From NCBI GenBank assembly GCA_016209385.1, contig JACQWB010000205.1, positions 1-50,243 on the forward strand: a DNA stretch of 50,243 nucleotides, read 5' to 3'. The notes under the pieces were generated by a model. That model saw only the letters and a program-made list of their open reading frames with translations, was not told where the DNA came from and did not search any database. Every line of letters begins with the position of its first letter. Within the stretch, counting starts at the first letter, position 1. The position numbers and the translations under genes were made by a program. The stretch is from Candidatus Rokuibacteriota bacterium (GTDB lineage Bacteria > Methylomirabilota > Methylomirabilia > Rokubacteriales > CSP1-6). Below are positions 2,049-50,243 of the stretch, piece after piece.

Positions 2049-4112
2049 ATGAAGCTCCGTCTTCTCTCCCGCAGTCGCAGCATCCGTGAGGCCGCCGCGA
2101 CCATCTTCGCCGTCAGCTCCCTCCTTCCGCTGCTCGTCTTCCTCTATCTTCTGTGGCGTTACGAGCTGGTCGCGGAGACCGATGCCCAGCTGGGCCTGCT
2201 CCTCGCCCTCCTGATCGCCCTCCTGGGCTTCGTCGTCTTCCAGCGCATGGTCAACCGCATCAGCGATCTCGCCCAAGCCGTGATAACGCCGAAGCCGGCC
2301 GACCTCGCGACGACGCCGGCCGAAGCCGCGATGGTGCCGGGTCTCGGCCCGGTGGCAGAGCTCGGCCAGATCACGGACGCGTTCAACCGCCTCCTCGAGG
2401 ACCTTCGCGGGTCTACGGAGCGACTCGAGGACCTCGTCTTCAAGCTCGGGACGCTGAACGAGATGGTGGAGCTGGCAGCCCGAATCCCGGCGATGCAGGA
2501 CCTCCTCGGCCTGGTGCTCGAGCGGACGATGCGAACCGTGCGCGCGAGGATCGGCTCCATCATGCTCCTGGACCGCGAGCGGCAGACGCTCCGGATCGCC
2601 GCGGCCCGCGGGCTCCCGGAAGAGGTGACCCGCGGCGTCGAGGTCAGGGTGGGCGAAGGGATCGCCGGCCGGGCGGTGCAGCTCGGGGAACCGATCCTCG
2701 TCGACGACGTGGAGACCGACCCGCGCTTCGGCAAAGCCAACGACCCGAAGTACGGCGGTGGCTCCTTCATCTGCATGCCGGTCCGGGTGGGGGACCGGAT
2801 CATCGGCGTCATCAACCTGGCCAAAAAGGAGTACGGCGCCACCACGCCGGCTGACCTGCGGTCCTTCGGCCCCAGCGATCTGCAGTTCCTGAACGCGCTG
2901 ATGACGTACATCGCCTACGCCCTCGACAACGCGCGCCTCCTGGAAGAGGCCCGGCAAGCGGCCAGCCGTCTCGCGGAAGTGGTGAGGGACCAGCAGCTCC
3001 GGTTGACCCTCGCCCAGCAGCAGATGCTCCAGACCGAGAAGCTCTCGGCCCTGGGGCAGCTGGTGGCGGGCGTCGCCCACGAGCTGAACAACCCGCTGAC
3101 GGTCCTGCTCGGCAGCGCGCACATCATGCGGGACCAGGCCCCGGAGCCGTTGCACCCGACCCTCGATCTCATGGTCGAGCAGGCCGAGAGGAGCCGGCGG
3201 ATCGTTCAGGGGCTGCTCACCTTTGCCCGGCGCCTGCCCCTCGAACGCGAGCGCGTCGACCTGGGCGACCTCCTGGCCAAGGTCCTGAGCGTCACCGCCT
3301 CCGACCTCCAGCTCGCGGGGATCAGCGTGGAGCAGCAGGTCGAACCCGGCCTGCCGCCCCTCTGGGCGGACGGCGGTCAGCTCCAGCAGGTCCTGCTGAA
3401 CCTCGTCACCAACGCCAAGCAGGCGATGACAGAGGCGGACGGCGACCGACGACTCCGCATCGCCATGCGGCGCGCCGGTCCGGACCGCGTGGTCATTCTG
3501 GTGCAGGACACCGGCCCGGGCGTGCCCGCCGAGATCCTGCCGAAGGTCTTCGACCCGTTCGTGACGACCAAGGGAGCCCGGGGAACCGGTCTCGGCCTCA
3601 GCATCTCCTACGGCATCATCCAGGAACACGGCGGTGACCTCCGCGTGGACAGCACGGGGAGCCAGGGCACGACCTTCGCGATCGAGCTACCCATCGGGAC
3701 GCTGGCGACGGAGCCCGTCAAGGAGACGCCCGGCGGGCCCGCGACGCTGGCGGGGCGCCGCATCCTCGTGGTCGAGGACGATCCGGCGGTGCGCCGGCTC
3801 GTGCACGCGTACCTGGAAGCGGCCGGCTGCGACACCGTCTGCGTCACGACCGCCGAGGAGGCCCTCGAAGCCCTGTCGGAACCGGTCGACCTGGTACTCT
3901 CCGACGTCTACCTGCCCGGCATGGACGCCCTCGCGCTCTACCGGGAGGCCACCACCCGGGACTCTCGCCTGAGGCGCCGCTTTCTGCTGATGACGGGGGG
4001 CCTGATCACCGATGCCATCCAGGGGTTTCTGGCCCAGGGCGAGGGTAAACTGCTGCAGAAGCCGTTCTCGCGCGAGCAGCTCCTGGACGTCGTGCGCGAA
4101 CTCCTGAAATGA
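2049..4112 (+). CDS. Hybrid histidine kinase: 2 TM, HAMP-like, GAF, HisKA, HATPase, REC
   Basis: Two hydrophobic helices, a GAF domain (GEGIAG, DPRF, YALDNARL), H-box AHELNNPL, N-box NLVTNA, DTGPG, GTGLGL, and a REC domain (VVEDD, SDVYLP, KPF). Confidence 0.92.
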   Translation: MKLRLLSRSRSIREAAATIFAVSSLLPLLVFLYLLWRYELVAETDAQLGLLLALLIALLGFVVFQRMVNRISDLAQAVITPKPADLATTPAEAAMVPGLGPVAELGQITDAFNRLLEDLRGSTERLEDLVFKLGTLNEMVELAARIPAMQDLLGLVLERTMRTVRARIGSIMLLDRERQTLRIAAARGLPEEVTRGVEVRVGEGIAGRAVQLGEPILVDDVETDPRFGKANDPKYGGGSFICMPVRVGDRIIGVINLAKKEYGATTPADLRSFGPSDLQFLNALMTYIAYALDNARLLEEARQAASRLAEVVRDQQLRLTLAQQQMLQTEKLSALGQLVAGVAHELNNPLTVLLGSAHIMRDQAPEPLHPTLDLMVEQAERSRRIVQGLLTFARRLPLERERVDLGDLLAKVLSVTASDLQLAGISVEQQVEPGLPPLWADGGQLQQVLLNLVTNAKQAMTEADGDRRLRIAMRRAGPDRVVILVQDTGPGVPAEILPKVFDPFVTTKGARGTGLGLSISYGIIQEHGGDLRVDSTGSQGTTFAIELPIGTLATEPVKETPGGPATLAGRRILVVEDDPAVRRLVHAYLEAAGCDTVCVTTAEEALEALSEPVDLVLSDVYLPGMDALALYREATTRDSRLRRRFLLMTGGLITDAIQGFLAQGEGKLLQKPFSREQLLDVVRELLK

Positions 4113-4131
4113 TCGCCGGCTGACAGGCGGC

Positions 4132-5478
<1,347 letters not shown>

Positions 5479-5484
5479 GTCAAA

Positions 5485-5558
5485 TCGGAGGGGGCCTCGA
5501 CGGCCCCCTCCGAGGCCTCCCCCAGGAATCGCTTGCGCGGGCAAAGCCCGCGCTCGAA
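5485..5558. repeat. Family A palindromic repeat (reverse orientation), directly after a stop codon
   Basis: tcggagggggcctcgacggccccctccga-ggcctcccccaggaatcgcttg-cgcgggcaaagcccgcg-ctcgaa. Confidence 0.92.
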
Positions 5559-5784
5559 GAGGTCCTAGCCCGATCAGTTTCTCATCGCTGGTAAGTTCCT
5601 CACCGGGGCGAGAACGCGCGATCAAAGCCCCGGTAACTGTCTGAAACGACTCGCCTGCCCCGCTTCCTCCTCCCCGGCCCCGAGTCCCAGGTGGTAAAGA
5701 ACTGGCCGGTTCATCCGCGATGACGCCCACCGTCGAACTCGAAAAAGCCTTGGACCATCACCGCTTATCCGATCCCTCCAACCT

Positions 5785-5800
5785 TGGTCCCCCTCTTGCA
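5785..5800 (+). promoter_or_regulatory. Possible sigma54 (-24/-12) promoter upstream of the lone receiver gene
   Basis: TGGtccccctcTTGCA gives GG-N10-GC spacing with a perfect TTGCA. The -24 half is only a partial match. It lies just downstream of a sigma54 activator gene. Confidence 0.3.
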
Positions 5801-5896
5801 GCCGTTCGGCGCCCGGGGTGAGCGAGAGGGAATCGTCGGTAGGCCCCTCCGACTCTCTCCCCACCAAACCGATAACTCACACCCAAGAGGGGGAAC

Positions 5897-6364
5897 ATGG
5901 CGACCGAGGGGAGTCGCCCGACTTCGACCTCCATGGCTCCGGATGACCTCCTGGCCTTTCCGGAAGCCCATGGTCGGGGCCGTTCGGTGAAGAACGACAG
6001 GCAAAAGATCCTCATCGTCGACGACGCCGGCCCAGTCGTAGTCCTGTGCGTGAACGTGCTGCAGTCCCTCGGATACGCGGTCAAGGGCGCCAATCGAGGC
6101 GAGCGAGCCCTGGAGTTGGTGGCCCACGAGGAGTTCGACCTCATGGTGGTGGATTACAGGATGCCGGGGATGGATGGGTTCCAGGTGGTCCGGCAAGCTC
6201 GAGCGGTGCGACCGGACATGGCCTTCATCCTGGTGACAGCTCACGGCACCCCGGAGGTCCTTGACGAAGCGAACCGCATGGGTTTCAGCTCCATCCTGTC
6301 CAAGCCGTTCACGCCCGATGAGCTGCGCGACGCCGTCGAGCGGGCCCTGCCCACAAAGGGATAG
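5897..6364 (+). CDS. Single-domain response regulator (CheY-like receiver)
   Basis: ILIVDD, LMVVDYRMPGMDG, LVTA, SKPF. RBS gagggggaac precedes the ATG. Confidence 0.9.
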   Translation: MATEGSRPTSTSMAPDDLLAFPEAHGRGRSVKNDRQKILIVDDAGPVVVLCVNVLQSLGYAVKGANRGERALELVAHEEFDLMVVDYRMPGMDGFQVVRQARAVRPDMAFILVTAHGTPEVLDEANRMGFSSILSKPFTPDELRDAVERALPTKG

Positions 6365-6369
6365 CCGGG

Positions 6370-7317
6370 ATGCCGGCGCCAGACGACGCTGAGCCGAGGA
6401 TGAAGACGCCGACCCGGCGCGGGTGGCTCGTCGGGGGCATCCGCTGGGGGCTCGACCGGATGCTGTCTGTCGGCTACGGGGTCGTCTACGACTTCATCTT
6501 CGAGCGCTTCGCTCCCTACCTGAGCCTTCGGCGCGAAGTCCTGGCGCTGGTGGAAACCTCCGTCCCTGAGTCGGTTGACCGGCGCGATGTCCACGTGCTG
6601 GACGTGGGATGCGGGCCCGGCAATTTCGCCGTCAGCCTCGCCGAAGCCGGGTTCTCGGTCGTGGGCATCGACCCGTACGCCGCCCTGGTCGAACTGGCCA
6701 GGGAGAAGCGGCGGGCGAAGCACCTTCCGAACCTCGCTTTCCGTCACGCCGACCTCACGATCGGCAACACCTTCAGAGACGGGGCGTTCGACCAGGTCGT
6801 GAACATCCACTCGCTCTACCTCAATCCGACTCCAGACCGACTGCTCAGGGAAACCTACCGGGTCCTGAAGCCCGGCGGCAGCGCGGTCTTCGTGAACTTC
6901 ACGCGGCGGGTCTGGCTGCGGGCTACCTTCCGGGCGGTCAGGGCCCGCGCGGGCCTGAGCGCCGCGCTCCGGTGTCTCCTGTGGCTCCTCCCCAACTCGA
7001 TCTTCGAAGCCACGCGGACCCAGATCGGGCCCCACTACTGGGAGGAGGACGAGTTCTCGCGCAGGTTGCGCGACGCCGGCTTCACAGTGCTGGAGATGCG
7101 ACGGACATTCCTGGACGGGGCGAGCCTCCTGGCGTGGGCCCGGAAGGACAGCGACGAGCCGAGGCGCTTCGGCGCCGGCAGCTTCATCGCCTGCGCCAGC
7201 GACGAGGCGAGGCCCGAGCAGATGAGGCAGAGGCGAGGCCCGAACCGAAGGGAGGTGAGACGTTTCGTGGGGAGTGGATCACAGTGCGTTGAACTCCATG
7301 TCATCTTTGGGACGTGA
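6370..7317 (+). CDS. Class I SAM-dependent methyltransferase; C-terminus extended by family B repeat sequence
   Basis: VLDVGCGPG, GIDP, HADL, FDQVV, YRVLKPGG. Residues after ARKDS are translated repeat DNA. The start could be 6400. Confidence 0.85.
   Translation: MPAPDDAEPRMKTPTRRGWLVGGIRWGLDRMLSVGYGVVYDFIFERFAPYLSLRREVLALVETSVPESVDRRDVHVLDVGCGPGNFAVSLAEAGFSVVGIDPYAALVELAREKRRAKHLPNLAFRHADLTIGNTFRDGAFDQVVNIHSLYLNPTPDRLLRETYRVLKPGGSAVFVNFTRRVWLRATFRAVRARAGLSAALRCLLWLLPNSIFEATRTQIGPHYWEEDEFSRRLRDAGFTVLEMRRTFLDGASLLAWARKDSDEPRRFGAGSFIACASDEARPEQMRQRRGPNRREVRRFVGSGSQCVELHVIFGT
7156..7243 (+). repeat. Family B repeat, in frame in the methyltransferase 3' end
   Basis: gagccgaggcgcttcggcgccggcagcttcatcgcc...cgacgaggcgaggcccgagca...gaggcgaggccc, nearly identical to 36576-36663. 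Confidence 0.92.
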
Positions 7318-8100: not shown

Positions 8101-8646
8101 ATGAGCGCGACAGCAATCGAGGCCAACAGCGTATGCCAGGAGGACGGCGCAGCGGCCAGCGACGGGCTGGTCCGCCTCCGCCTCGGCGGAGCGATCACCG
8201 CCGCGACCGCCCCGCGGCTCCGCAAGCTGATCCGCGGGTACGCGAGGCCGGGAGATGCGCGGCTGCTCGTGGACCTGGAGGGCGTGCCGGCGATCGATGT
8301 CTGCGGGATCGCCGCGCTCCTCGACGGCTTGAAGGTGATCGAAGCCCAGCCGGGCGGTGTTATGATGTTGCGGGTGAACCCGACGGTGCGCCAGGCATTG
8401 AGAAAATCCGGAACGATCACGGCCTTCCGGTTCTGGAACGGTCAAGGGCAGTTCGAGCCGAGTGGCGTCGGCCATGCCGTGTGGCAGGCCCGCCACGAGG
8501 CGAGGCCCGAGTGGCACTTCGAGCCGAGGGGCTCCCGACGAGCCGCAGGCGTGGCAGTTCGAGCCGAGGCGCTTCGGACGAGCCGGAGGCGAGGACAGCG
8601 ACGAGGCGAGACCCGAGTAAACAGCCACGAGGCGAGGCCCAAATAG
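8101..8646 (+). CDS. STAS-domain protein (anti-sigma-factor antagonist-like); C-terminal ~65 aa are family B repeat
   Basis: VRLRLGGAI...LLVDLEGVPAIDVCGIAALL...LRVNPTVRQALRKSG fits a STAS fold. The usual phospho-Ser of DSSG reads DVCG. Confidence 0.8.
   Translation: MSATAIEANSVCQEDGAAASDGLVRLRLGGAITAATAPRLRKLIRGYARPGDARLLVDLEGVPAIDVCGIAALLDGLKVIEAQPGGVMMLRVNPTVRQALRKSGTITAFRFWNGQGQFEPSGVGHAVWQARHEARPEWHFEPRGSRRAAGVAVRAEALRTSRRRGQRRGETRVNSHEARPK
8447..8643 (+). repeat. Family B tandem array (about 3 units)
   Basis: Recurrent ttcgagccgag (3x) and cgaggcgag(g/a)ccc (3x) with different hairpin-forming cores between them. Confidence 0.9.
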
Positions 8647-18771: not shown

Positions 18772-18887
18772 TCGGAGGGGGGCCACCCACGCCGACCTCC
18801 CGCGCTGTCGCGCGGGTGTGGCGCGGGTACCCGCCCCTTCCGAACCTCCCCCCAGAACAGCTTGCGCCGGCAAAGCCGGCGCTCGAG
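18772..18887. repeat. Family A composite repeat (reverse orientation)
   Basis: tcggagggggg...gggtacccgccccttccga-acctccccccag...cgccggc-aaa-gccggcg-ctcgag. Confidence 0.85.
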
Positions 18888-20139: not shown

Positions 20140-20523
20140 ACCCGCCCCTTCGGGGGCGGGTACCCGGCCCACGCAATCGGTTTGGGGAGAGGCATCGGAA
20201 GGGGGCGGAGCCCCCCTCCGAGGCTTTCTAGCGCGGGCTTGGCCCGCGCAACCAACTCGGGCCTCGCCTCGGGGCTGTCTTCGCCGGCGGGGCGGCGGCC
20301 GCCCCTCGGCTCGAACCACCATTCCCGGGGGAGGCTCGGAGGGGGCCGTCGAGGCCCCCTTCGAGGGGATCGAGCGCGGGCTTTGCCCGCGCAACCTGTC
20401 CGGGGGGGGGGAGGCATCGGAAGGGGGGCGTCAGCCCCCCCCGAGGGAAGTTTCGAGCGCCGGCTTTGCCGGCGCAATCCGTCGTGGGGGAGGCTTCGGA
20501 AGGGGGGCGGAGCCCCCCTCCGA
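20140..20523. repeat. Tandem array of four family A units with one embedded family B unit (20255-20315)
   Basis: Four cycles of [cgc(g/c)ggc-ttn-gcc(c/g)gcg-caa]-linker-[gggg(g)a(ga)gg-tcgga(a/g)ggggg-loop-ccccc..cga], the first unit being degenerate. Preceded by a perfect acccgcccc-TTCG-ggggcgggt hairpin. Confidence 0.92.
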
Positions 20524-26496: not shown

Positions 26497-26570
26497 TCGG
26501 AGGGGGCCTCGACGGCCCCCTCCGAAACCTCCCCCAGGAATCGGTTGCGCGGGCCAAGCCCGCGCTCGAA
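26497..26570. repeat. Family A repeat (reverse orientation), followed by related hairpin modules to about 26760
   Basis: Near-identical to 5485-5558. The gggtacccgcgccgaaggcgtgggt module at about 26640-26665 is also seen at about 44797-44824. Confidence 0.9.
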
Positions 26571-35897: not shown

Positions 35898-36681
35898 CCC
35901 GCGGTTGCTGCTCGGCGTCGGTACCACTGCGCTGCTCCTGGCCGCCGGCGCCGCAGGCTTCGCGTGGTCGGGGTTCGGCGTCATGATCCTCGCCAAGTTT
36001 CACGAGCCCGGTGCCCCTGTCTCGGCCACGGCGGATGACGCATCCGCACCCCAGCCGTCGCCGGCCTCCCTGCGCCAGGACGAGCTACCGCTTCAAGCGG
36101 AGGAGACCACGACCCGAGACGTCCCGAGCCATCCCACAGCCATCGGGTCTCGCCTCGTGCGACCCGCGGAACCCAGCTTCGCTGGGTGCCCCGGGTGCCC
36201 GCTGCCTCACGGCATGGCCGACGTCCCTCGGCTCGAAAATCCACTCGGGTCTCGCCTCGTGACGGGCCTGCCTCACGGCATGGCCGACGTCCCTCGGCTC
36301 GAAGTTCAACAGCCGCGCCCGGCGCTCGCTCAGGGCGCGCCCGCCCTGGCCGAGATCTACGGATCGATGCGCCCGCAGGAGGCGGCGAGCATTCTCTCCC
36401 GGGTCGAGCCAAAGGTCGCCGCACAGATTCTGACAGAGATGGCGCCCCGAAAGGCCGCCCGTGTGCTCGGGGCCATCGATCCTGCACAGGCCGCAACCCT
36501 GACGAGCGAGATCGTGAGAGGCCCGGTGGAAATTCGAGCCGAGGGGCTCCCGACGAGCCCCGGGCACGGCAGTTCGAGCCGAGGCGCTTCGGCGCCGGCA
36601 GCTTCATCGCCGGCGCCAGCGACGAGGCGAGGCCCGAGCAAATCAGACGGAGGCGAGGCCCAAAAGGAGCCTACCCCGTGA
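35887..36681 (+). CDS. MotE/YlxF/FlbB-like flagellar protein (TM + MgtE-N-like domain) carrying two family B insertions
   Basis: N-terminal TM and LAEIYGSMRPQEAASILSRV...ILTEMAPRKAARVLGAIDP. Sits in the ylxF position between fliJ and fliK. GTG start at 35887. Confidence 0.8.
   Translation: MKRSPRLLLGVGTTALLLAAGAAGFAWSGFGVMILAKFHEPGAPVSATADDASAPQPSPASLRQDELPLQAEETTTRDVPSHPTAIGSRLVRPAEPSFAGCPGCPLPHGMADVPRLENPLGSRLVTGLPHGMADVPRLEVQQPRPALAQGAPALAEIYGSMRPQEAASILSRVEPKVAAQILTEMAPRKAARVLGAIDPAQAATLTSEIVRGPVEIRAEGLPTSPGHGSSSRGASAPAASSPAPATRRGPSKSDGGEAQKEPTP
36143..36303 (-). repeat. Two family B units in reverse orientation, internal to the CDS
   Basis: tcgggtctcgcctcgt...gcctcacggcatggccgacgtccctcggctcgaa occurs twice. 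It is the reverse complement of the 8447-8511 unit type. Confidence 0.92.
36533..36663 (+). repeat. Two family B units at the 3' end of the motE-like CDS
   Basis: ttcgagccgaggggctcccgacgagcc (as at about 8518) plus the 7156-7243-type unit. Confidence 0.92.
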
Positions 36682-46708: not shown

Positions 46709-48849
46709 GGACCGCGGGCGCGGCACCGCGCACCGGCGGCGGACCCGCGTCCCTCCGCGCTGAGCGGGGCTACCCGGCGGGGCTGGCCGGCGGGCCCGCC
46801 ATCGTCTTCACCGACCTGGGGCTGGCGGGCGCGGTCCTGGGGATTCTCGGGATGATGGTGATCCCGCTCCCCACGGTCGTCTTGGACATCCTCCTGAGCG
46901 CCAACCTTTCCGTCGCGCTCCTGACCCTGCTCGTCGCCATGTACATCCTGAAGCCCGTGGAGTTCTCGGCCTTCCCGTCCCTGCTCCTCGTGCTCACGCT
47001 CCTCCGCCTGGCGCTCAACGTGGCCTCGACCCGGCTCATTCTCCTCCACGGCCACGAAGGCCCGGCCGCGGCCGGCGAGGTGATCAGGGCGTTCGGCCAG
47101 TTCGTTCTCGCAGGCAACTACGTCGTCGGGCTCGTCGTCTTCCTGATCCTCGTGGTCATCCAGTTCGTGGTGATCACGAAGGGCGCCGGCCGGATCGCCG
47201 AGGTGGCGGCCCGCTTCACCCTCGACGCGATGCCCGGCAAGCAGATGTCCATCGACGCCGACCTCAACGCCGGCTTGATCACCGAGGCGGACGCCCGCCG
47301 CCGGCGGGAGGGCATCGCCCGGGAGGCCGACTTCTACGGCGCCATGGACGGCGCGTCCAAGTTCGTGCGGGGCGACGCGGTGGCAAGCCTGATCATCACG
47401 GCCATCAACATCCTGGGCGGGCTCGCTGTCGGCGTGCTCCAGCAGGGCGTGGGGCTCGTCGACGCGCTTCAGGCGTACACGATCCTCACCGTGGGCGATG
47501 GTCTCGTCACGCAGATCCCCGCGCTGATCGTTTCCACCGCGGCCGGCATCGTCGTGACCCGGGCCGCCGCCGAATCCGACCTCTCGTCGGATCTCGTCAG
47601 CCAGCTCACGCTGCGCCCGCGCGCCCTCGGCGTCACTGCGGGGGTCCTCGGGAGCCTGGCCCTCGTCCCGGGTCTCCCGACGCTGCCATTTCTCCTCCTC
47701 GCCGGACTCCTGGCCGCGGCGAACTACGCGCTCCGCGGACGCGGCCCCCAGCCGACCCAGGCTCACGCCGGATCCGCTGGGCCCGCGAGCGGCACTCGCG
47801 ACAAACCCGAGGGCCTCCCGCCGGTCGACCTCCTGAGCCTCGAAGTGGGATACAACCTGATCCCGCTGGTGGATCCCGCCCAGGGCGGGGAGCTCCTCGA
47901 GCGCGTGAAGGCGCTGAGGCAGCAGTTCGCGCTGGACCTCGGGTTCACGGTCCCGCCGGTCCGGGTTCGGGACAACCTGCAGCTTCGCCCCAATAGCTAT
48001 CTCATCCGCCTCAAGGAGCTCGAGGTGGCTCAGGGAGAAGTGACCCCGGATCGCCTCCTGGCAATCAACCCGGGGACGGCGACCCGGCAGCTGGACGGAA
48101 TCGAGACCCGCGAGCCCACCTTCGGCGTCCCGGCCCTGTGGATCTCCCCCGCCCTGAAGGACGAGGCTCGCGCGGCGGGATACACGGTCGTCGACCCCGG
48201 GACTGTGGTCGCCACCCACCTCTCCGAAACGGTTCGCCGCCACGCCGCGACGCTCCTCACGCGCCAGGCGGTTCAGGAGATGCTGGACCAGGTGAAGGCA
48301 AGCCAACCCGCGGTCCTGGATGGGCTCATCCCGGCGCTCCTGCCGCTCGGCGCCGTGCACAAGGTTCTTCAGCTCCTCCTTGCCGAAGAGGTGTCCATCC
48401 GGGACCTGCCCACCATCCTCGAGGCCCTGTCGGACTACGCTCCCCATACGAAGGATCCGGCCTACCTGGCCGAGCGGGTGCGGGCCGTCATCCCCGCTGC
48501 CGTGATCCACCCGTACCTCGGGCCGAACAAGACGCTGCGTCCGCTCGTGCTCAACCCCGGCGTGGAGCGACTGCTCCGGGCCGGCCTTCAGCGCGGGGAG
48601 GGAGCCGGCGCGTTGGTCCTCGAGCCGCACGCGCTCCAGGGGCTCGTGAACGGGGTGGCGCGCGCCCTCGAGCAGGCTGCCCCGGGCGAAGCGCGGCCAT
48701 GTCTGCTGTGCGCGCAGGACCTCCGCCCGCACCTGCGCCGGCTCCTCGAGCGATCGTTCCCCCATCTCGGCGTGCTCTCGTATGCCGAGCTTCCGGCCAC
48801 TGTGACGCTGCAACCCAGCTTGCCTGTGGAGGTCGAGCATGCTGCTTAA
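46705..48849 (+). CDS. flhA: Flagellar export protein FlhA
   Basis: FSAFPSLLL, GAGRIAEVAARFTLDAMPGKQMSIDADL, FYGAMDGASKFVRGDA, VSIRDL. Confidence 0.97.
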   Translation: MRTAGAAPRTGGGPASLRAERGYPAGLAGGPAIVFTDLGLAGAVLGILGMMVIPLPTVVLDILLSANLSVALLTLLVAMYILKPVEFSAFPSLLLVLTLLRLALNVASTRLILLHGHEGPAAAGEVIRAFGQFVLAGNYVVGLVVFLILVVIQFVVITKGAGRIAEVAARFTLDAMPGKQMSIDADLNAGLITEADARRRREGIAREADFYGAMDGASKFVRGDAVASLIITAINILGGLAVGVLQQGVGLVDALQAYTILTVGDGLVTQIPALIVSTAAGIVVTRAAAESDLSSDLVSQLTLRPRALGVTAGVLGSLALVPGLPTLPFLLLAGLLAAANYALRGRGPQPTQAHAGSAGPASGTRDKPEGLPPVDLLSLEVGYNLIPLVDPAQGGELLERVKALRQQFALDLGFTVPPVRVRDNLQLRPNSYLIRLKELEVAQGEVTPDRLLAINPGTATRQLDGIETREPTFGVPALWISPALKDEARAAGYTVVDPGTVVATHLSETVRRHAATLLTRQAVQEMLDQVKASQPAVLDGLIPALLPLGAVHKVLQLLLAEEVSIRDLPTILEALSDYAPHTKDPAYLAERVRAVIPAAVIHPYLGPNKTLRPLVLNPGVERLLRAGLQRGEGAGALVLEPHALQGLVNGVARALEQAAPGEARPCLLCAQDLRPHLRRLLERSFPHLGVLSYAELPATVTLQPSLPVEVEHAA

Positions 48850-49930
48850 ACGGTTCGAAGCTGCCAGCGTTCCCGAGGCCCTCGCGGCCGTCCGTCGGGA
48901 ACTCGGGGAAGACGCCGTCCTCCTTCACACCAAGACGCTCCCGCCGGCGGGCCTCGGGCGCCTCTTCGGCCGGCCGCGCGTGGAGGTGCTCGCGGCCCTC
49001 GACGGCGCGGTGCCTCACGTGGTGCCACCGGCTCGGGCGGCCCGCGCGGGAGCGGCGCAGGCAAACCCGGCGAGGCTGCCCGCAGGGCTCAAGGAGTTCG
49101 ACGCCGGCGGCACCGGCGCGCTCGCCGGCCGCAAGGCTGCGGCGGATCACATCCGTTTTCCCGCGCCGCTCCAGGTCTTCTACCATCGCCTCTGCGAGCA
49201 AGACGTTTCCGACGCGACCGCGCAGACCTTCCTCCGGACCCTCCAACGCAAAGGCGGCAAAGTGACCGCGGCTGCCACGACACGACTTCTGGCGGACCGC
49301 CTGCCCGTCGCGCCCAGCCGGTGGGATCGGGCCGGCCGGCGGGCTCTACGGATCGCCTTCGTCGGTCCGACCGGCGCAGGGAAGACCACGACGATGGCAA
49401 AGGTCGCGGCGACGGCTCAGCTCACCCATGGGCGGAAGATCGGTCTCGTGACCATGGACACCTATCGGATCGGAGCCATCCCTCAACTCAAGGTCTACGC
49501 GGATCTGCTGAAGAGCCCCCTCCAGGTCGTTACCGAGCCCGATGAGATGGACCGGGCACTCGCCGCGCTGGACAGCCAGGACCTGGTGTTCATCGACACC
49601 ATCGGCCGGAGCCCTCTGGGCTCGTCCGTGGACAAGCTCGTGCCCTTCCTCGACGCCGCCCACGCCGACGAGGTCCACCTCGTCCTGCCCGCAACCACAC
49701 GCTCGGTCGACCTCCTCGGAGCCGCCAAGGGCTTCGCCAGGCTCCGACCCAACCGGCTCTGCTTCACCAAGCTCGACGAGACCTCGCACTACGGAGGCAT
49801 CCTGAGCGTGAGCCACGCGACCGCCCTCCCCCTCACCTGGCTCGGCATCGGACAGGAGGTCCCCGACGACCTGGAGGAAGCTCGGCCAGAGCGGATCGCG
49901 ACCGCGATCGTCTCGGGAAACGCCGCATGA
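48839..49930 (+). CDS. flhF: Flagellar SRP-family GTPase FlhF
   Basis: EALAAVRRELGEDAVLL, GPTGAGKTTT, DTYRIGA, DTIGR, TKLDET, GQEVPDDL. Confidence 0.95.
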   Translation: MLLKRFEAASVPEALAAVRRELGEDAVLLHTKTLPPAGLGRLFGRPRVEVLAALDGAVPHVVPPARAARAGAAQANPARLPAGLKEFDAGGTGALAGRKAAADHIRFPAPLQVFYHRLCEQDVSDATAQTFLRTLQRKGGKVTAAATTRLLADRLPVAPSRWDRAGRRALRIAFVGPTGAGKTTTMAKVAATAQLTHGRKIGLVTMDTYRIGAIPQLKVYADLLKSPLQVVTEPDEMDRALAALDSQDLVFIDTIGRSPLGSSVDKLVPFLDAAHADEVHLVLPATTRSVDLLGAAKGFARLRPNRLCFTKLDETSHYGGILSVSHATALPLTWLGIGQEVPDDLEEARPERIATAIVSGNAA

Positions 49931-49963
49931 GAAACCCGGCATCACTAATCTGCCCCGGGGCCT

Positions 49964-50111
49964 TTCGAGCGCGTACCCATGCCTCCGGCACACCCCGGCC
50001 TCCGGCCCGGGTACCCGCCCGGCCCGCGCAATTTCACTCGGGCCTCGCCTCGTGGCTCTCCTCGCCTGCGGCTCGTCGGGAGCCCCTCGGCTCGAACTGC
50101 CACCGGGGGAG
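49964..50111. repeat. Composite family A+B repeat truncated by the IS end
   Basis: A-type ...cccgcgcaa, then a reversed B unit (50036-50101), then gggggag. The expected hairpin 2 is replaced by foreign sequence from 50112. Confidence 0.85.
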
Positions 50112-50243
50112 ACTTTCTATGACCCTTGTCAAGAACTTTTTTTTTCACGGTCACGCCGCCCGGCGTAACTGCTGCCGCGCCATGGTCGCCAGGTGGTAGG
50201 TCTCGTCGTATGGCACCTGCCGACTCCACATGACGAAGATGAC
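50110..50243 (-). mobile_element. Right end of a probable IS110-family insertion sequence (continues beyond the window)
   Basis: Minus strand: transposase-like C-terminus, stop, A-run, TTGACA (50132-50127), 15 nt, then CT (50111-50110) joining repeat DNA. No terminal inverted repeat is testable within the window. Confidence 0.7.
50151..50243 (-). CDS. C-terminal 30 aa of a probable IS110-family transposase (partial; absent from the ORF track)
   Basis: Manual translation VIFVMWSRQVPYDETYHLATMARQQLRRAA* resembles the (I/L)xxMW...PYD tail of IS110 recombinases. This is pattern recall, not a database search. Confidence 0.68.
   Translation of the reverse strand, partial: VIFVMWSRQVPYDETYHLATMARQQLRRAA

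What the first reader, a model, noticed from the sequence alone, without database searches (positions are those of the whole stretch)
50036..50243. Probable IS110 (bridge-recombinase) element inserted at a CT core inside the family A repeat
Seen (minus strand): ...PYDETYHLATMARQQLRRAA-stop, then TTGACA-agggtcatagaaagt-CT-cccccggtggcag. Intact repeats read ccga-(gg/tg/aa)c-CT-ccccc (for example 5511-5524, 26523-26535), so the foreign DNA ends exactly at that CT. TTGACA plus 15 nt plus CT gives a 17-nt spacer. Established: IS110 elements such as IS621 recombine at a short core (CT for IS621), target REP repeats through a bridge RNA, and form a promoter across the circle junction with the -35 from the right end. 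Inference: a bridge-RNA system programmed against this lineage's repeat, with many empty targets in this window alone.
Basis: partly seen in the sequence, partly recalled or inferred. Interest (0 to 1): 0.8.

Follow-up and report, generated by a model that had tools for sequence, protein, structure and literature searches.

The report
IS110 bridge-RNA element in a repeat
The window ends inside a multi-copy IS110-type insertion sequence whose own guide RNA matches the short repeat it sits in; this is a clean, correctly predicted new example of a mechanism described in 2024, not a new kind of system.

Summary
On the minus strand the window ends with 30 codons plus stop, then TTGACA-N15-CT-CCCCCGGTGGCAG.

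The 30 residues are identical to the C-terminus of a 407-aa protein (P0001). It carries PF01548 and PF02371 and passes NCBIfam's "IS110 family RNA-guided transposase" cut-off.

Full copies on contigs from the same groundwater study show a 1501-bp element flanked by CT on both sides. It lies inside ...CCTTCCGAAC-CT-CCCCC..., which occurs unbroken at window 18840.

- the missing repeat half on the far side;
- TATACT beside the left core, giving TTGACA-N17-TATACT across a circle junction;
- a 238-nt 5' non-coding region with four segments that match left target, right target, right end and left end by the IS621 rules.

Across eight diverged relatives the guides change together with their DNA partners, and a two-loop fold is supported by compensatory changes.

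Limits:
- Only one perfect and one near-perfect empty site lie in the window, not "many".
- No activity was shown.

Verdict: reader supported; new member of a known kind; modest interest.

The parts
50112..50243 (-). Last 132 nt (right end) of a 1501-bp IS110-family element; the rest lies beyond the end of the contig
   Evidence: Identical, with 0 other letters, to the multi-copy Logan contigs that carry the whole element (records 8, 16, 24). Corresponds to L003:1400-1531.
50151..50243 (-). Last 30 codons plus stop of the transposase (bridge recombinase) gene
   Evidence: One search gives the ORF. It is identical to the C-terminus of P0001. A weak tblastn hit falls on the last 30 residues of an annotated IS110 transposase.
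50127..50132 (-). TTGACA, the -35 half of the promoter that is complete only across a right-end/left-end circle junction
   Evidence: Invariant in all nine right ends aligned. Lies 17-18 nt upstream of TATACT, TATATT or TATGAT of the left end once the ends are joined. Function is inferred from IS621 (PMC11208160).
50112..50120 (-). Left donor (ATAGAAAGT), the terminal bases matched by the donor-binding loop guide LDG
   Evidence: LDG AUAGAAAGU lies at L003:189-197. It covaries with the right end in relatives: AGGAAG, AGGAGG, AGAGAG.
50110..50111 (-). Core dinucleotide CT, the crossover site
   Evidence: CT is present on both sides of every full copy examined and once in empty sites.
50105..50109 (-). 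Right target CCCCC, the retained tail of the family A repeat
   Evidence: RTG GGGGGAG at L003:145-151 is the reverse complement of CT-CCCCC. The multi-copy contig starts at 50105 in three runs, so the copies share this flank.
50033..50104 (-). Family B repeat module next to the insertion site (context, not part of the element)
   Evidence: 89-92% complementary to 8551-8621, 8506-8554 and 36522-36565. Logan depth there reaches several thousand, so it is highly repeated.
18840..18852 (+). Perfect empty target site CCGAAC-CT-CCCCC in an intact family A repeat
   Evidence: 0 mismatches. Its surroundings match the left flank of L003 base for base. Present uninterrupted at single-copy depth in X1 and X2.
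20327..20339 (-). Near-perfect empty target CCGAGC-CT-CCCCC, followed by a family B module as at the window's end
   Evidence: mismatch.

Best explanation
Window 50112-50243 (minus strand) is the right end of a 1501-bp, multi-copy IS110-group insertion sequence. The host is an uncultured groundwater bacterium, probably Rokubacteria/Methylomirabilota.

The element encodes a 407-aa DEDD-plus-serine recombinase. Upstream of that gene, in its 238-nt left end, it encodes a bridge RNA with two internal loops.

- Target loop: CCGAACC reads the left half of the site, and GGGGGAG is complementary to CT-CCCCC.
- Donor loop: AUAGAAAGU reads the element's right end, and GUAUAAG is complementary to CT-TATAC at its left end.

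The element therefore sits at the CT of ...CCGAAC-CT-CCCCC..., between hairpin 1 and the C-tract of this lineage's REP-like 'family A' repeat, with CT on both sides.

After excision as a circle, the right-end TTGACA and the left-end TATACT would form a sigma-70-type promoter with a 17-nt spacer, driving the bridge RNA and the recombinase.

Shown: the element's identity, its ends, the site shared by many copies, the guide matches, covariation of guides with their DNA partners, and the RNA fold. Inferred from IS621: the circle, promoter use, RNA-guided catalysis, and the left flank of this particular copy.
For: Protein. The tail is identical to P0001. PF01548 scores 106.9 bits and PF02371 31.9 bits. 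NF033542 'IS110 family RNA-guided transposase' scores 142.9 against a cut-off of 140. The PDB sequence hits are the ISCro4 and IS621 recombinases, with D9, D101, D104 and S316-G317 aligned to IS621 D11, D102, D105 and S241-G242.

Ends and site. L003 reads ...CCCCTTCCGAAC-CT|TATACT...AGAAAGT|CT-CCCCCC. At least five different left flanks and nine different right flanks share CCGAAC-CT and CT-CCCCC. The unbroken site is at window 18840.

Copy number. The element's contig is about 14 times as deep as the neighbouring single-copy gene in two runs.

Guides. Exact matches of 7, 7, 9 and 7 nt lie in the expected order; 0 of 5000 shuffles give all four. In a 7-by-7 matrix, each element's guides match its own DNA best or equal best, with changes on both sides for LTG, RTG, LDG and RDG.

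Fold. 42 pairs, 97.3% of cells paired against 35-51% when partners are slid, and 12 pairs with compensatory change, reached by 0 of 500 shuffles. The guides lie on the unpaired sides of the two loops.

Rules. The guide rules and the junction promoter are taken from PMC11208160.
Against: - This copy's left end and left flank were not seen.
- None of the Logan 31-mer contigs listed spans the window's own junction; they break at 50103-50105. That join therefore rests on the original assembly.
- LTG and LDG do not pair with the second core base (G and U/G where T is expected).
- The single-sequence fold is no more stable than shuffles (z = 0.14).
- Rfam has no matching family.
- No RNA data, no circle junction and no polymorphic insertion were found; site 18840 is empty at full depth.
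- The depth ratio may include copies in other organisms of the community.
Confidence: 0.93

Rival explanations
1. The window holds only a dead right-end remnant, or an assembly join to a repeat. On this reading there is no intact element at this locus: either the assembler attached the multi-copy right end to this flank, or a deletion left a solo end.
For: The contig stops 132 nt into the element. None of the Logan contigs listed spans 50095-50115. L015 and L016 show that aberrant right ends do exist in relatives (CATAAAAAC-CT-ACATTCC).
Against: The 132 nt are identical to the intact consensus. The join falls exactly at the CT-CCCCC that every other copy uses. The sequence shared with other flanks is only 8-9 nt, too short for an assembler to join by mistake. 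Contigs ending inside multi-copy IS elements are the normal outcome of short-read assembly.
Confidence: 0.05
2. Site choice is set mainly by the protein or by the hairpin structure of the repeat, and the RNA matches are a by-product of the element carrying copies of its own junction sequences.
For: The target lies beside a very stable hairpin. A 2026 preprint reports a structure requirement on top of base pairing for ISPpu10 (10.64898/2026.03.19.712850, abstract only).
Against: The guide segments are not copies of the junctions. RTG and RDG are reverse complements while LTG and LDG are same-sense, exactly as in IS621. They lie on the unpaired sides of two conserved loops. They also change with the target in relatives whose protein is 70-90% identical. 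A structural requirement could add to RNA guidance but would not replace it.
Confidence: 0.02

Closest known systems
IS621 of Escherichia coli (IS110 group; bridge RNA, Durrant et al. 2024 PMC11208160; Hiraizumi et al. 2024 PMC11208158)
   Same: DEDD RuvC-like domain plus Tnp domain with the catalytic Ser-Gly. CT core on both sides. No terminal inverted repeats. Bridge RNA in the left end with a target loop followed by a donor loop. LTG and LDG same-sense, RTG and RDG antisense. A -35 in the right end and a -10 in the left end. Inserts into REP-type repeats.
   Different: The protein is 407 aa against 326 aa and only distantly related (phmmer E about 1e-6), with a longer stretch between the two domains. 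The RTG pairs with 7-8 nt, not 4. The target and donor sequences are different. The host is an uncultured GC-rich groundwater lineage.
ISPpu9 / ISPpu10 of Pseudomonas putida and other REP-targeting IS110 elements (Tobes and Pareja 2006, PMC1525189; PMC12288879)
   Same: Multi-copy IS110-family elements that insert at one fixed position of the host's own interspersed palindromic repeat.
   Different: A different repeat family (the Rokubacteria double-hairpin A/B mosaic) and a different site. No sRNA gene was seen downstream of the transposase: the right end has only 39 non-coding nt.
IS1111 group / seekRNA elements (Siddiquee et al. 2024, PMC11187229)
   Same: Same transposase superfamily and RNA-guided site choice.
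   Different: IS1111-type elements carry the guide RNA downstream of the gene and have subterminal inverted repeats. Here the RNA is upstream, and the right end is too short to hold one.

Membership tests
IS110 family (bridge recombinase elements) | N-terminal DEDD RuvC-like domain (PF01548) | tested here: met
   P0001 residues 6-162, 106.9 bits against a cut-off of 29. D9, D101 and D104 align with IS621 D11, D102 and D105. E61 lies 3 residues from the column aligned to E60, across an alignment gap.
IS110 family (bridge recombinase elements) | C-terminal Tnp domain (PF02371) with the catalytic serine | tested here: met
   31.9 bits against a cut-off of 21.3. S316-G317 align with IS621 S241-G242.
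IS110 family (bridge recombinase elements) | Passes NCBIfam equivalog NF033542, 'IS110 family RNA-guided transposase' | tested here: met
   142.9 bits against a cut-off of 140, covering profile positions 1-342 of 343. The margin is narrow.
IS110 family (bridge recombinase elements) | Short core dinucleotide on both sides, no longer target duplication, no terminal inverted repeats | tested here: met
   CT flanks both ends in L003, L014, L021, L022 and L023, and occurs once in the empty site at 18840. The left end TATACTATCTCGG and the reverse complement of the right end ACTTTCTATGACC are unrelated when read by eye; no formal inverted-repeat scan of the ends was run.
IS110 family (bridge recombinase elements) | Non-coding RNA with two internal loops whose four guides match target and donor by the IS621 rules | tested here: met
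   Guides of 7, 7, 9 and 7 nt; 0 of 5000 shuffles give all four. Own partner is best or tied in every row across 7 elements. Two-loop fold with 12 compensatory pairs, reached by 0 of 500 shuffles.
IS110 family (bridge recombinase elements) | [quoted passage not shown] | tested here: inconclusive
   The sequence gives TTGACA-N17/18-TATACT, TATATT or TATGAT in all eight elements for which both ends were read. No circle junction or transcript was looked for; only assembled contigs were available.
IS110 family (bridge recombinase elements) | For this copy: a complete element with the other half of the repeat on its far side | not testable with these tools
   The contig ends at 50243.
IS1111 subgroup | Guide RNA in a long right-end non-coding region, and subterminal inverted repeats | tested here: not met
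   The right-end non-coding region is 39 nt and the left end is 238 nt, holding both loops.
Rfam RNA families | Match of the 5' non-coding region to any curated family | tested here: not met
   Only three chance microRNA matches, inside or antisense to the coding region (E 0.2-0.94).

The most novel reading that the evidence does not exclude
Closely related elements in the same communities seem to have retuned their target loops to different length variants of one repeat family. P0001, P0002 and P0016 read CCGAAC-CT. P0009 has LTG CCAAAGCC and sits at CCGAAGC-CT, the longer variant that is common in this window. P0011, P0005 and P0006 read CCCCGACC, CCCCAACC and CCCTGCC with CT-CTCCC. If this holds across the 1700 or more relatives, it would be a natural radiation of bridge RNA guides that tracks, and partitions, the sub-variants of a host repeat family. 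It would also offer a ready panel of orthologous recombinases with long (7-8 nt) right target guides.
Probability: 0.4. Interest if true: 0.45.

Novelty: new member of a known kind. Interest (0 to 1): 0.3.

Why it matters
It shows that the bridge RNA logic worked out for IS621 can be read directly from sequence in an uncultured, GC-rich groundwater lineage. All four guides are legible, and they covary with their DNA partners in natural relatives.

It explains why this contig ends where it does: a repeat of about 14-fold depth breaks the assembly.

It also links the lineage's abundant double-hairpin repeats to a mobile element that uses them as a landing site.

Practically, it adds a distant 407-aa orthologue family with naturally long right target guides to the pool of candidate programmable recombinases.

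It does not change what is known about how these elements work.

Tried and rejected
The window's own genome could not be searched and the contig could not be extended.
- Looking up the neighbouring flhF-like protein by exact sequence gave only 1.9-kb Logan contigs that stop in the repeats.
- Exact scans for the right end found nothing in genome contigs or metagenome contigs. A degenerate left-end scan of metagenome contigs found one locus, L023, not the many hoped for, so no target logo from dozens of sites could be made.
- The Rfam scan gave no relevant family.
- The single-sequence fold of the 5' region is no better than shuffles (z = 0.14). Only the comparative fold is informative.
- Laying Logan contigs on the window's own junction did not produce a spanning contig. 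Laying them on the perfect empty site at 18840 showed no occupied variant; contigs drop rare variants, so this does not show absence.
- Rejected: that CTCCCCC is part of the element. The unbroken sequence CCGAAC-CT-CCCCC exists at 18840, and flanks diverge right after CCCCC.
- Rejected: IS1111-type organisation. The right end is too short.
- The padded-query trick (X residues plus the 30-residue tail) was miscounted: 358 residues, not 350, so only 22 of the 30 residues were scored. It still returned the right protein, which was then confirmed over all 30 residues.

Full report
**Observation**

On the minus strand an open frame runs off the contig and ends VIFVMWSRQVPYDETYHLATMARQQLRRAA-stop. 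It is followed by CCGTGAAAAAAAAAGTTC-TTGACA-AGGGTCATAGAAAGT-CT-CCCCCGGTGGCAG. The 23-nt string TTGACAAGGGTCATAGAAAGTCT is unique in the window.

The DNA outside it (50033-50104) is a copy of a second repeat module, 'family B'. Other copies lie at about 8450-8620, 36200-36320 and 36522-36640. An intact junction of a family A hairpin, CT-CCCCC and a family B module exists at 20300-20365. A family A tail followed by a B module is therefore a normal arrangement in this genome.

**Getting the rest of the element**

Exact scans for the right end found nothing in the genome or metagenome collections. The neighbouring gene is only on short Logan contigs.

A tblastn of the 30 residues against plasmids gave one weak hit (E = 0.2). 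It falls exactly on the last 30 residues of an annotated IS110 family transposase.

Four groundwater-metagenome runs hold the stretch. In them the element's part lies on a contig about 14 times as deep as the adjacent single-copy gene (166.7 vs 11.4; 243.2 vs 17.5; about 7-fold in a third run). That contig starts at 50105 in three runs, which is 7 nt outside the element, so the copies share the flank CT-CCCCC. The depth may include other community members, so 14 is an upper estimate of copies per genome.

A protein search with the tail padded to a realistic length returned 15 proteins of about 407 aa, and 14 of them have PF01548 plus PF02371. The best, P0001, ends in exactly the window's 30 residues. 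It is encoded on eight Logan contigs of 1.3-1.6 kb from the same study.

**Anatomy of a full copy (L003)**

The left flank is ...GGCGCGGGTACCCGCCCCTTCCGAAC-CT. The element runs from L003:31 to 1531 (1501 bp) and starts TATACTATCTCGG. A 238-nt non-coding region comes first, then the transposase gene at 269-1492, then 39 non-coding nt ending TTGACAAGGGTCATAGAAAGT. After that come CT-CCCCCC and the second family A hairpin. The window holds the last 132 nt (L003:1400-1531).

The unbroken sequence GGCGCGGGTACCCGCCCCTTCCGAAC-CT-CCCCCC is present at window 18820-18853. The element therefore sits exactly at that CT, with CT on both sides.

Across the Logan contigs, the window and relatives there are at least five different left flanks and nine different right flanks. 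All share CCGAAC-CT and CT-CCCCC and diverge beyond them. This is what many independent insertions at one short site look like.

**Protein**

P0001 scores 106.9 bits on PF01548 and 31.9 on PF02371. It passes NCBIfam NF033542, 'IS110 family RNA-guided transposase', at 142.9 against 140. Its only PDB sequence relatives are the ISCro4 and IS621 recombinases.

In the IS621 alignment, D9, D101, D104 and S316-G317 fall on D11, D102, D105 and S241-G242. Those are the residues shown to be essential in PMC11208158. E61, in AAIEKPAG, is three residues from the E60 column across a gap, so that equivalence is inferred.

The family is large: 1739 proteins at E ≤ 1e-20 among the candidates scored. Most are on 1.5-2 kb contigs, and one is named by NCBI as from a Methylomirabilales MAG. 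Earlier notes of this scan, which I did not check, also place the genome in Rokubacteria.

**Bridge RNA**

By the published rules, LTG and LDG read like the top strand of the left target or donor plus core. RTG and RDG are the reverse complement of core plus the right target or donor (PMC11208160).

| Guide | Sequence | Position in L003 | DNA partner |
|---|---|---|---|
| LTG | CCGAACC | 120 | left target CCGAAC-C |
| RTG | GGGGGAG | 145 | reverse complement of CT-CCCCC |
| LDG | AUAGAAAGU | 189 | right end |
| RDG | GUAUAAG | 215 | reverse complement of CT-TATAC |

Singly these matches are reached by 517, 185, 13 and 286 of 5000 shuffles. No shuffle reaches all four together.

I then fetched eight diverged elements, 70-91% identical in protein.
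- P0011, P0006 and P0005 have RTG GGGAGAG and sit at CT-CTCCC.
- Their LTGs CCCUGACCC, CCUUGCCC and CCCAACCC sit beside CCCCGACC-C, CCCTGCC-C and CCCCAACC-C.
- Their LDGs follow right ends ATAGGAAGT and ATAGGAGGT.
- Their RDG AUAUAAG follows left ends CT-TATAT.
- P0009 has LTG CCAAAGCC and sits at CCGAAGC-CT-CCCCC.

In a matrix of each guide against each element's DNA, the element's own partner is best or tied for best in every row.

RNAalifold on the eight sequences gives two internal loops, each closed by conserved stems and capped by a small hairpin. The four guides lie on the unpaired sides. Of 42 pairs, 97.3% of cells are paired, against 35-51% when partners are slid by 1-3 columns. Twelve pairs carry compensatory changes, which 0 of 500 shuffles reach.

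Rfam has no matching family. The single-sequence fold is unremarkable (z = 0.14).

**Junction promoter**

Joining the right end to the left end through one CT gives TTGACA-N17-TATACT in P0001 and L023. It gives N18-TATACT or TATATT in P0016, P0009 and P0002. In P0011, P0006 and P0005 the right end is two bases shorter and the hexamer starts two bases further in, giving N17-TATGAT.

TTGACA is invariant in all right ends. In the integrated state the flank supplies no -35 at the left end and no -10 at the right end. Use of this promoter is inferred from IS621 and was not tested.

**Empty sites**

The window has eleven family A copies with TCCGA-N(2-4)-CT-CCCC. Only 18840 matches the guides perfectly, and 20339 (minus strand) has one mismatch. 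The rest have extra bases before the core (one in eight copies, two in one), which shifts the left half out of register.

Site 18840 is uninterrupted at single-copy depth in two runs, with no loose ends reading into the element.

**What is not shown**

This copy's own left end and left flank were not seen. None of the Logan contigs listed spans the window's own junction. No transcript, circle or transposition event was observed.

**Verdict**

The element is an IS110-group, bridge-RNA-guided insertion sequence that targets the host's REP-like repeat. Both the mechanism (2024) and the habit of targeting REPs (2006; PMC1525189) are established. It is a new member of a known kind and of modest interest.

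The only mildly novel thread is the apparent retuning of target loops among sister elements to different variants of the same repeat family.

Noticed in passing
L015:1512-1672 and L016:1431-1588: Two JGI contigs carrying the P0009 transposase have an aberrant right end. After TTGACATGGGGTCATA they read AAAACCTACATTCCGCGG, not GAAAGT-CT-CCCCC, although the donor-loop guide is unchanged. L015 also has a P0001-type left end and a left flank that does not fit P0009's LTG. Possible causes are an off-target or half-match recombination product, a deletion, or a chimeric assembly.
   Followed up: no
L014:2999-4132: A second, different IS110-family ORF (377 aa, opposite strand) lies about 400 bp downstream of the P0009 element on the same 4.6-kb contig. 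That makes two IS110 elements side by side in repeat-rich DNA.
   Followed up: no
window 50036-50100 (and 8450-8620, 36200-36640): The family B module has summed Logan word depth of about 4000-7000 in runs where single-copy DNA is at 11-18. That suggests hundreds of copies per genome equivalent, although other community members contribute.
   Followed up: no
L019:1386-1440: In the P0012 element the RTG reads CGCUGGGG and the right flank reads GGT-CC-CCAGCG. The core may therefore be CC, not CT, in this relative. The contig lacks the left end, so this could not be checked.
   Followed up: partly
window 48839-50243: The element lies about 180 nt downstream of an flhF-like (SRP54-type GTPase) gene in a flagellar cluster. 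If the next flagellar gene follows on the same strand, the insertion could be polar on it. The far side is not in the window.
   Followed up: no
window 50133-50147 (minus strand): A run of nine A's lies just upstream of the right-end TTGACA and is partly conserved in relatives. It is placed where an UP element would be for the junction promoter.
   Followed up: no
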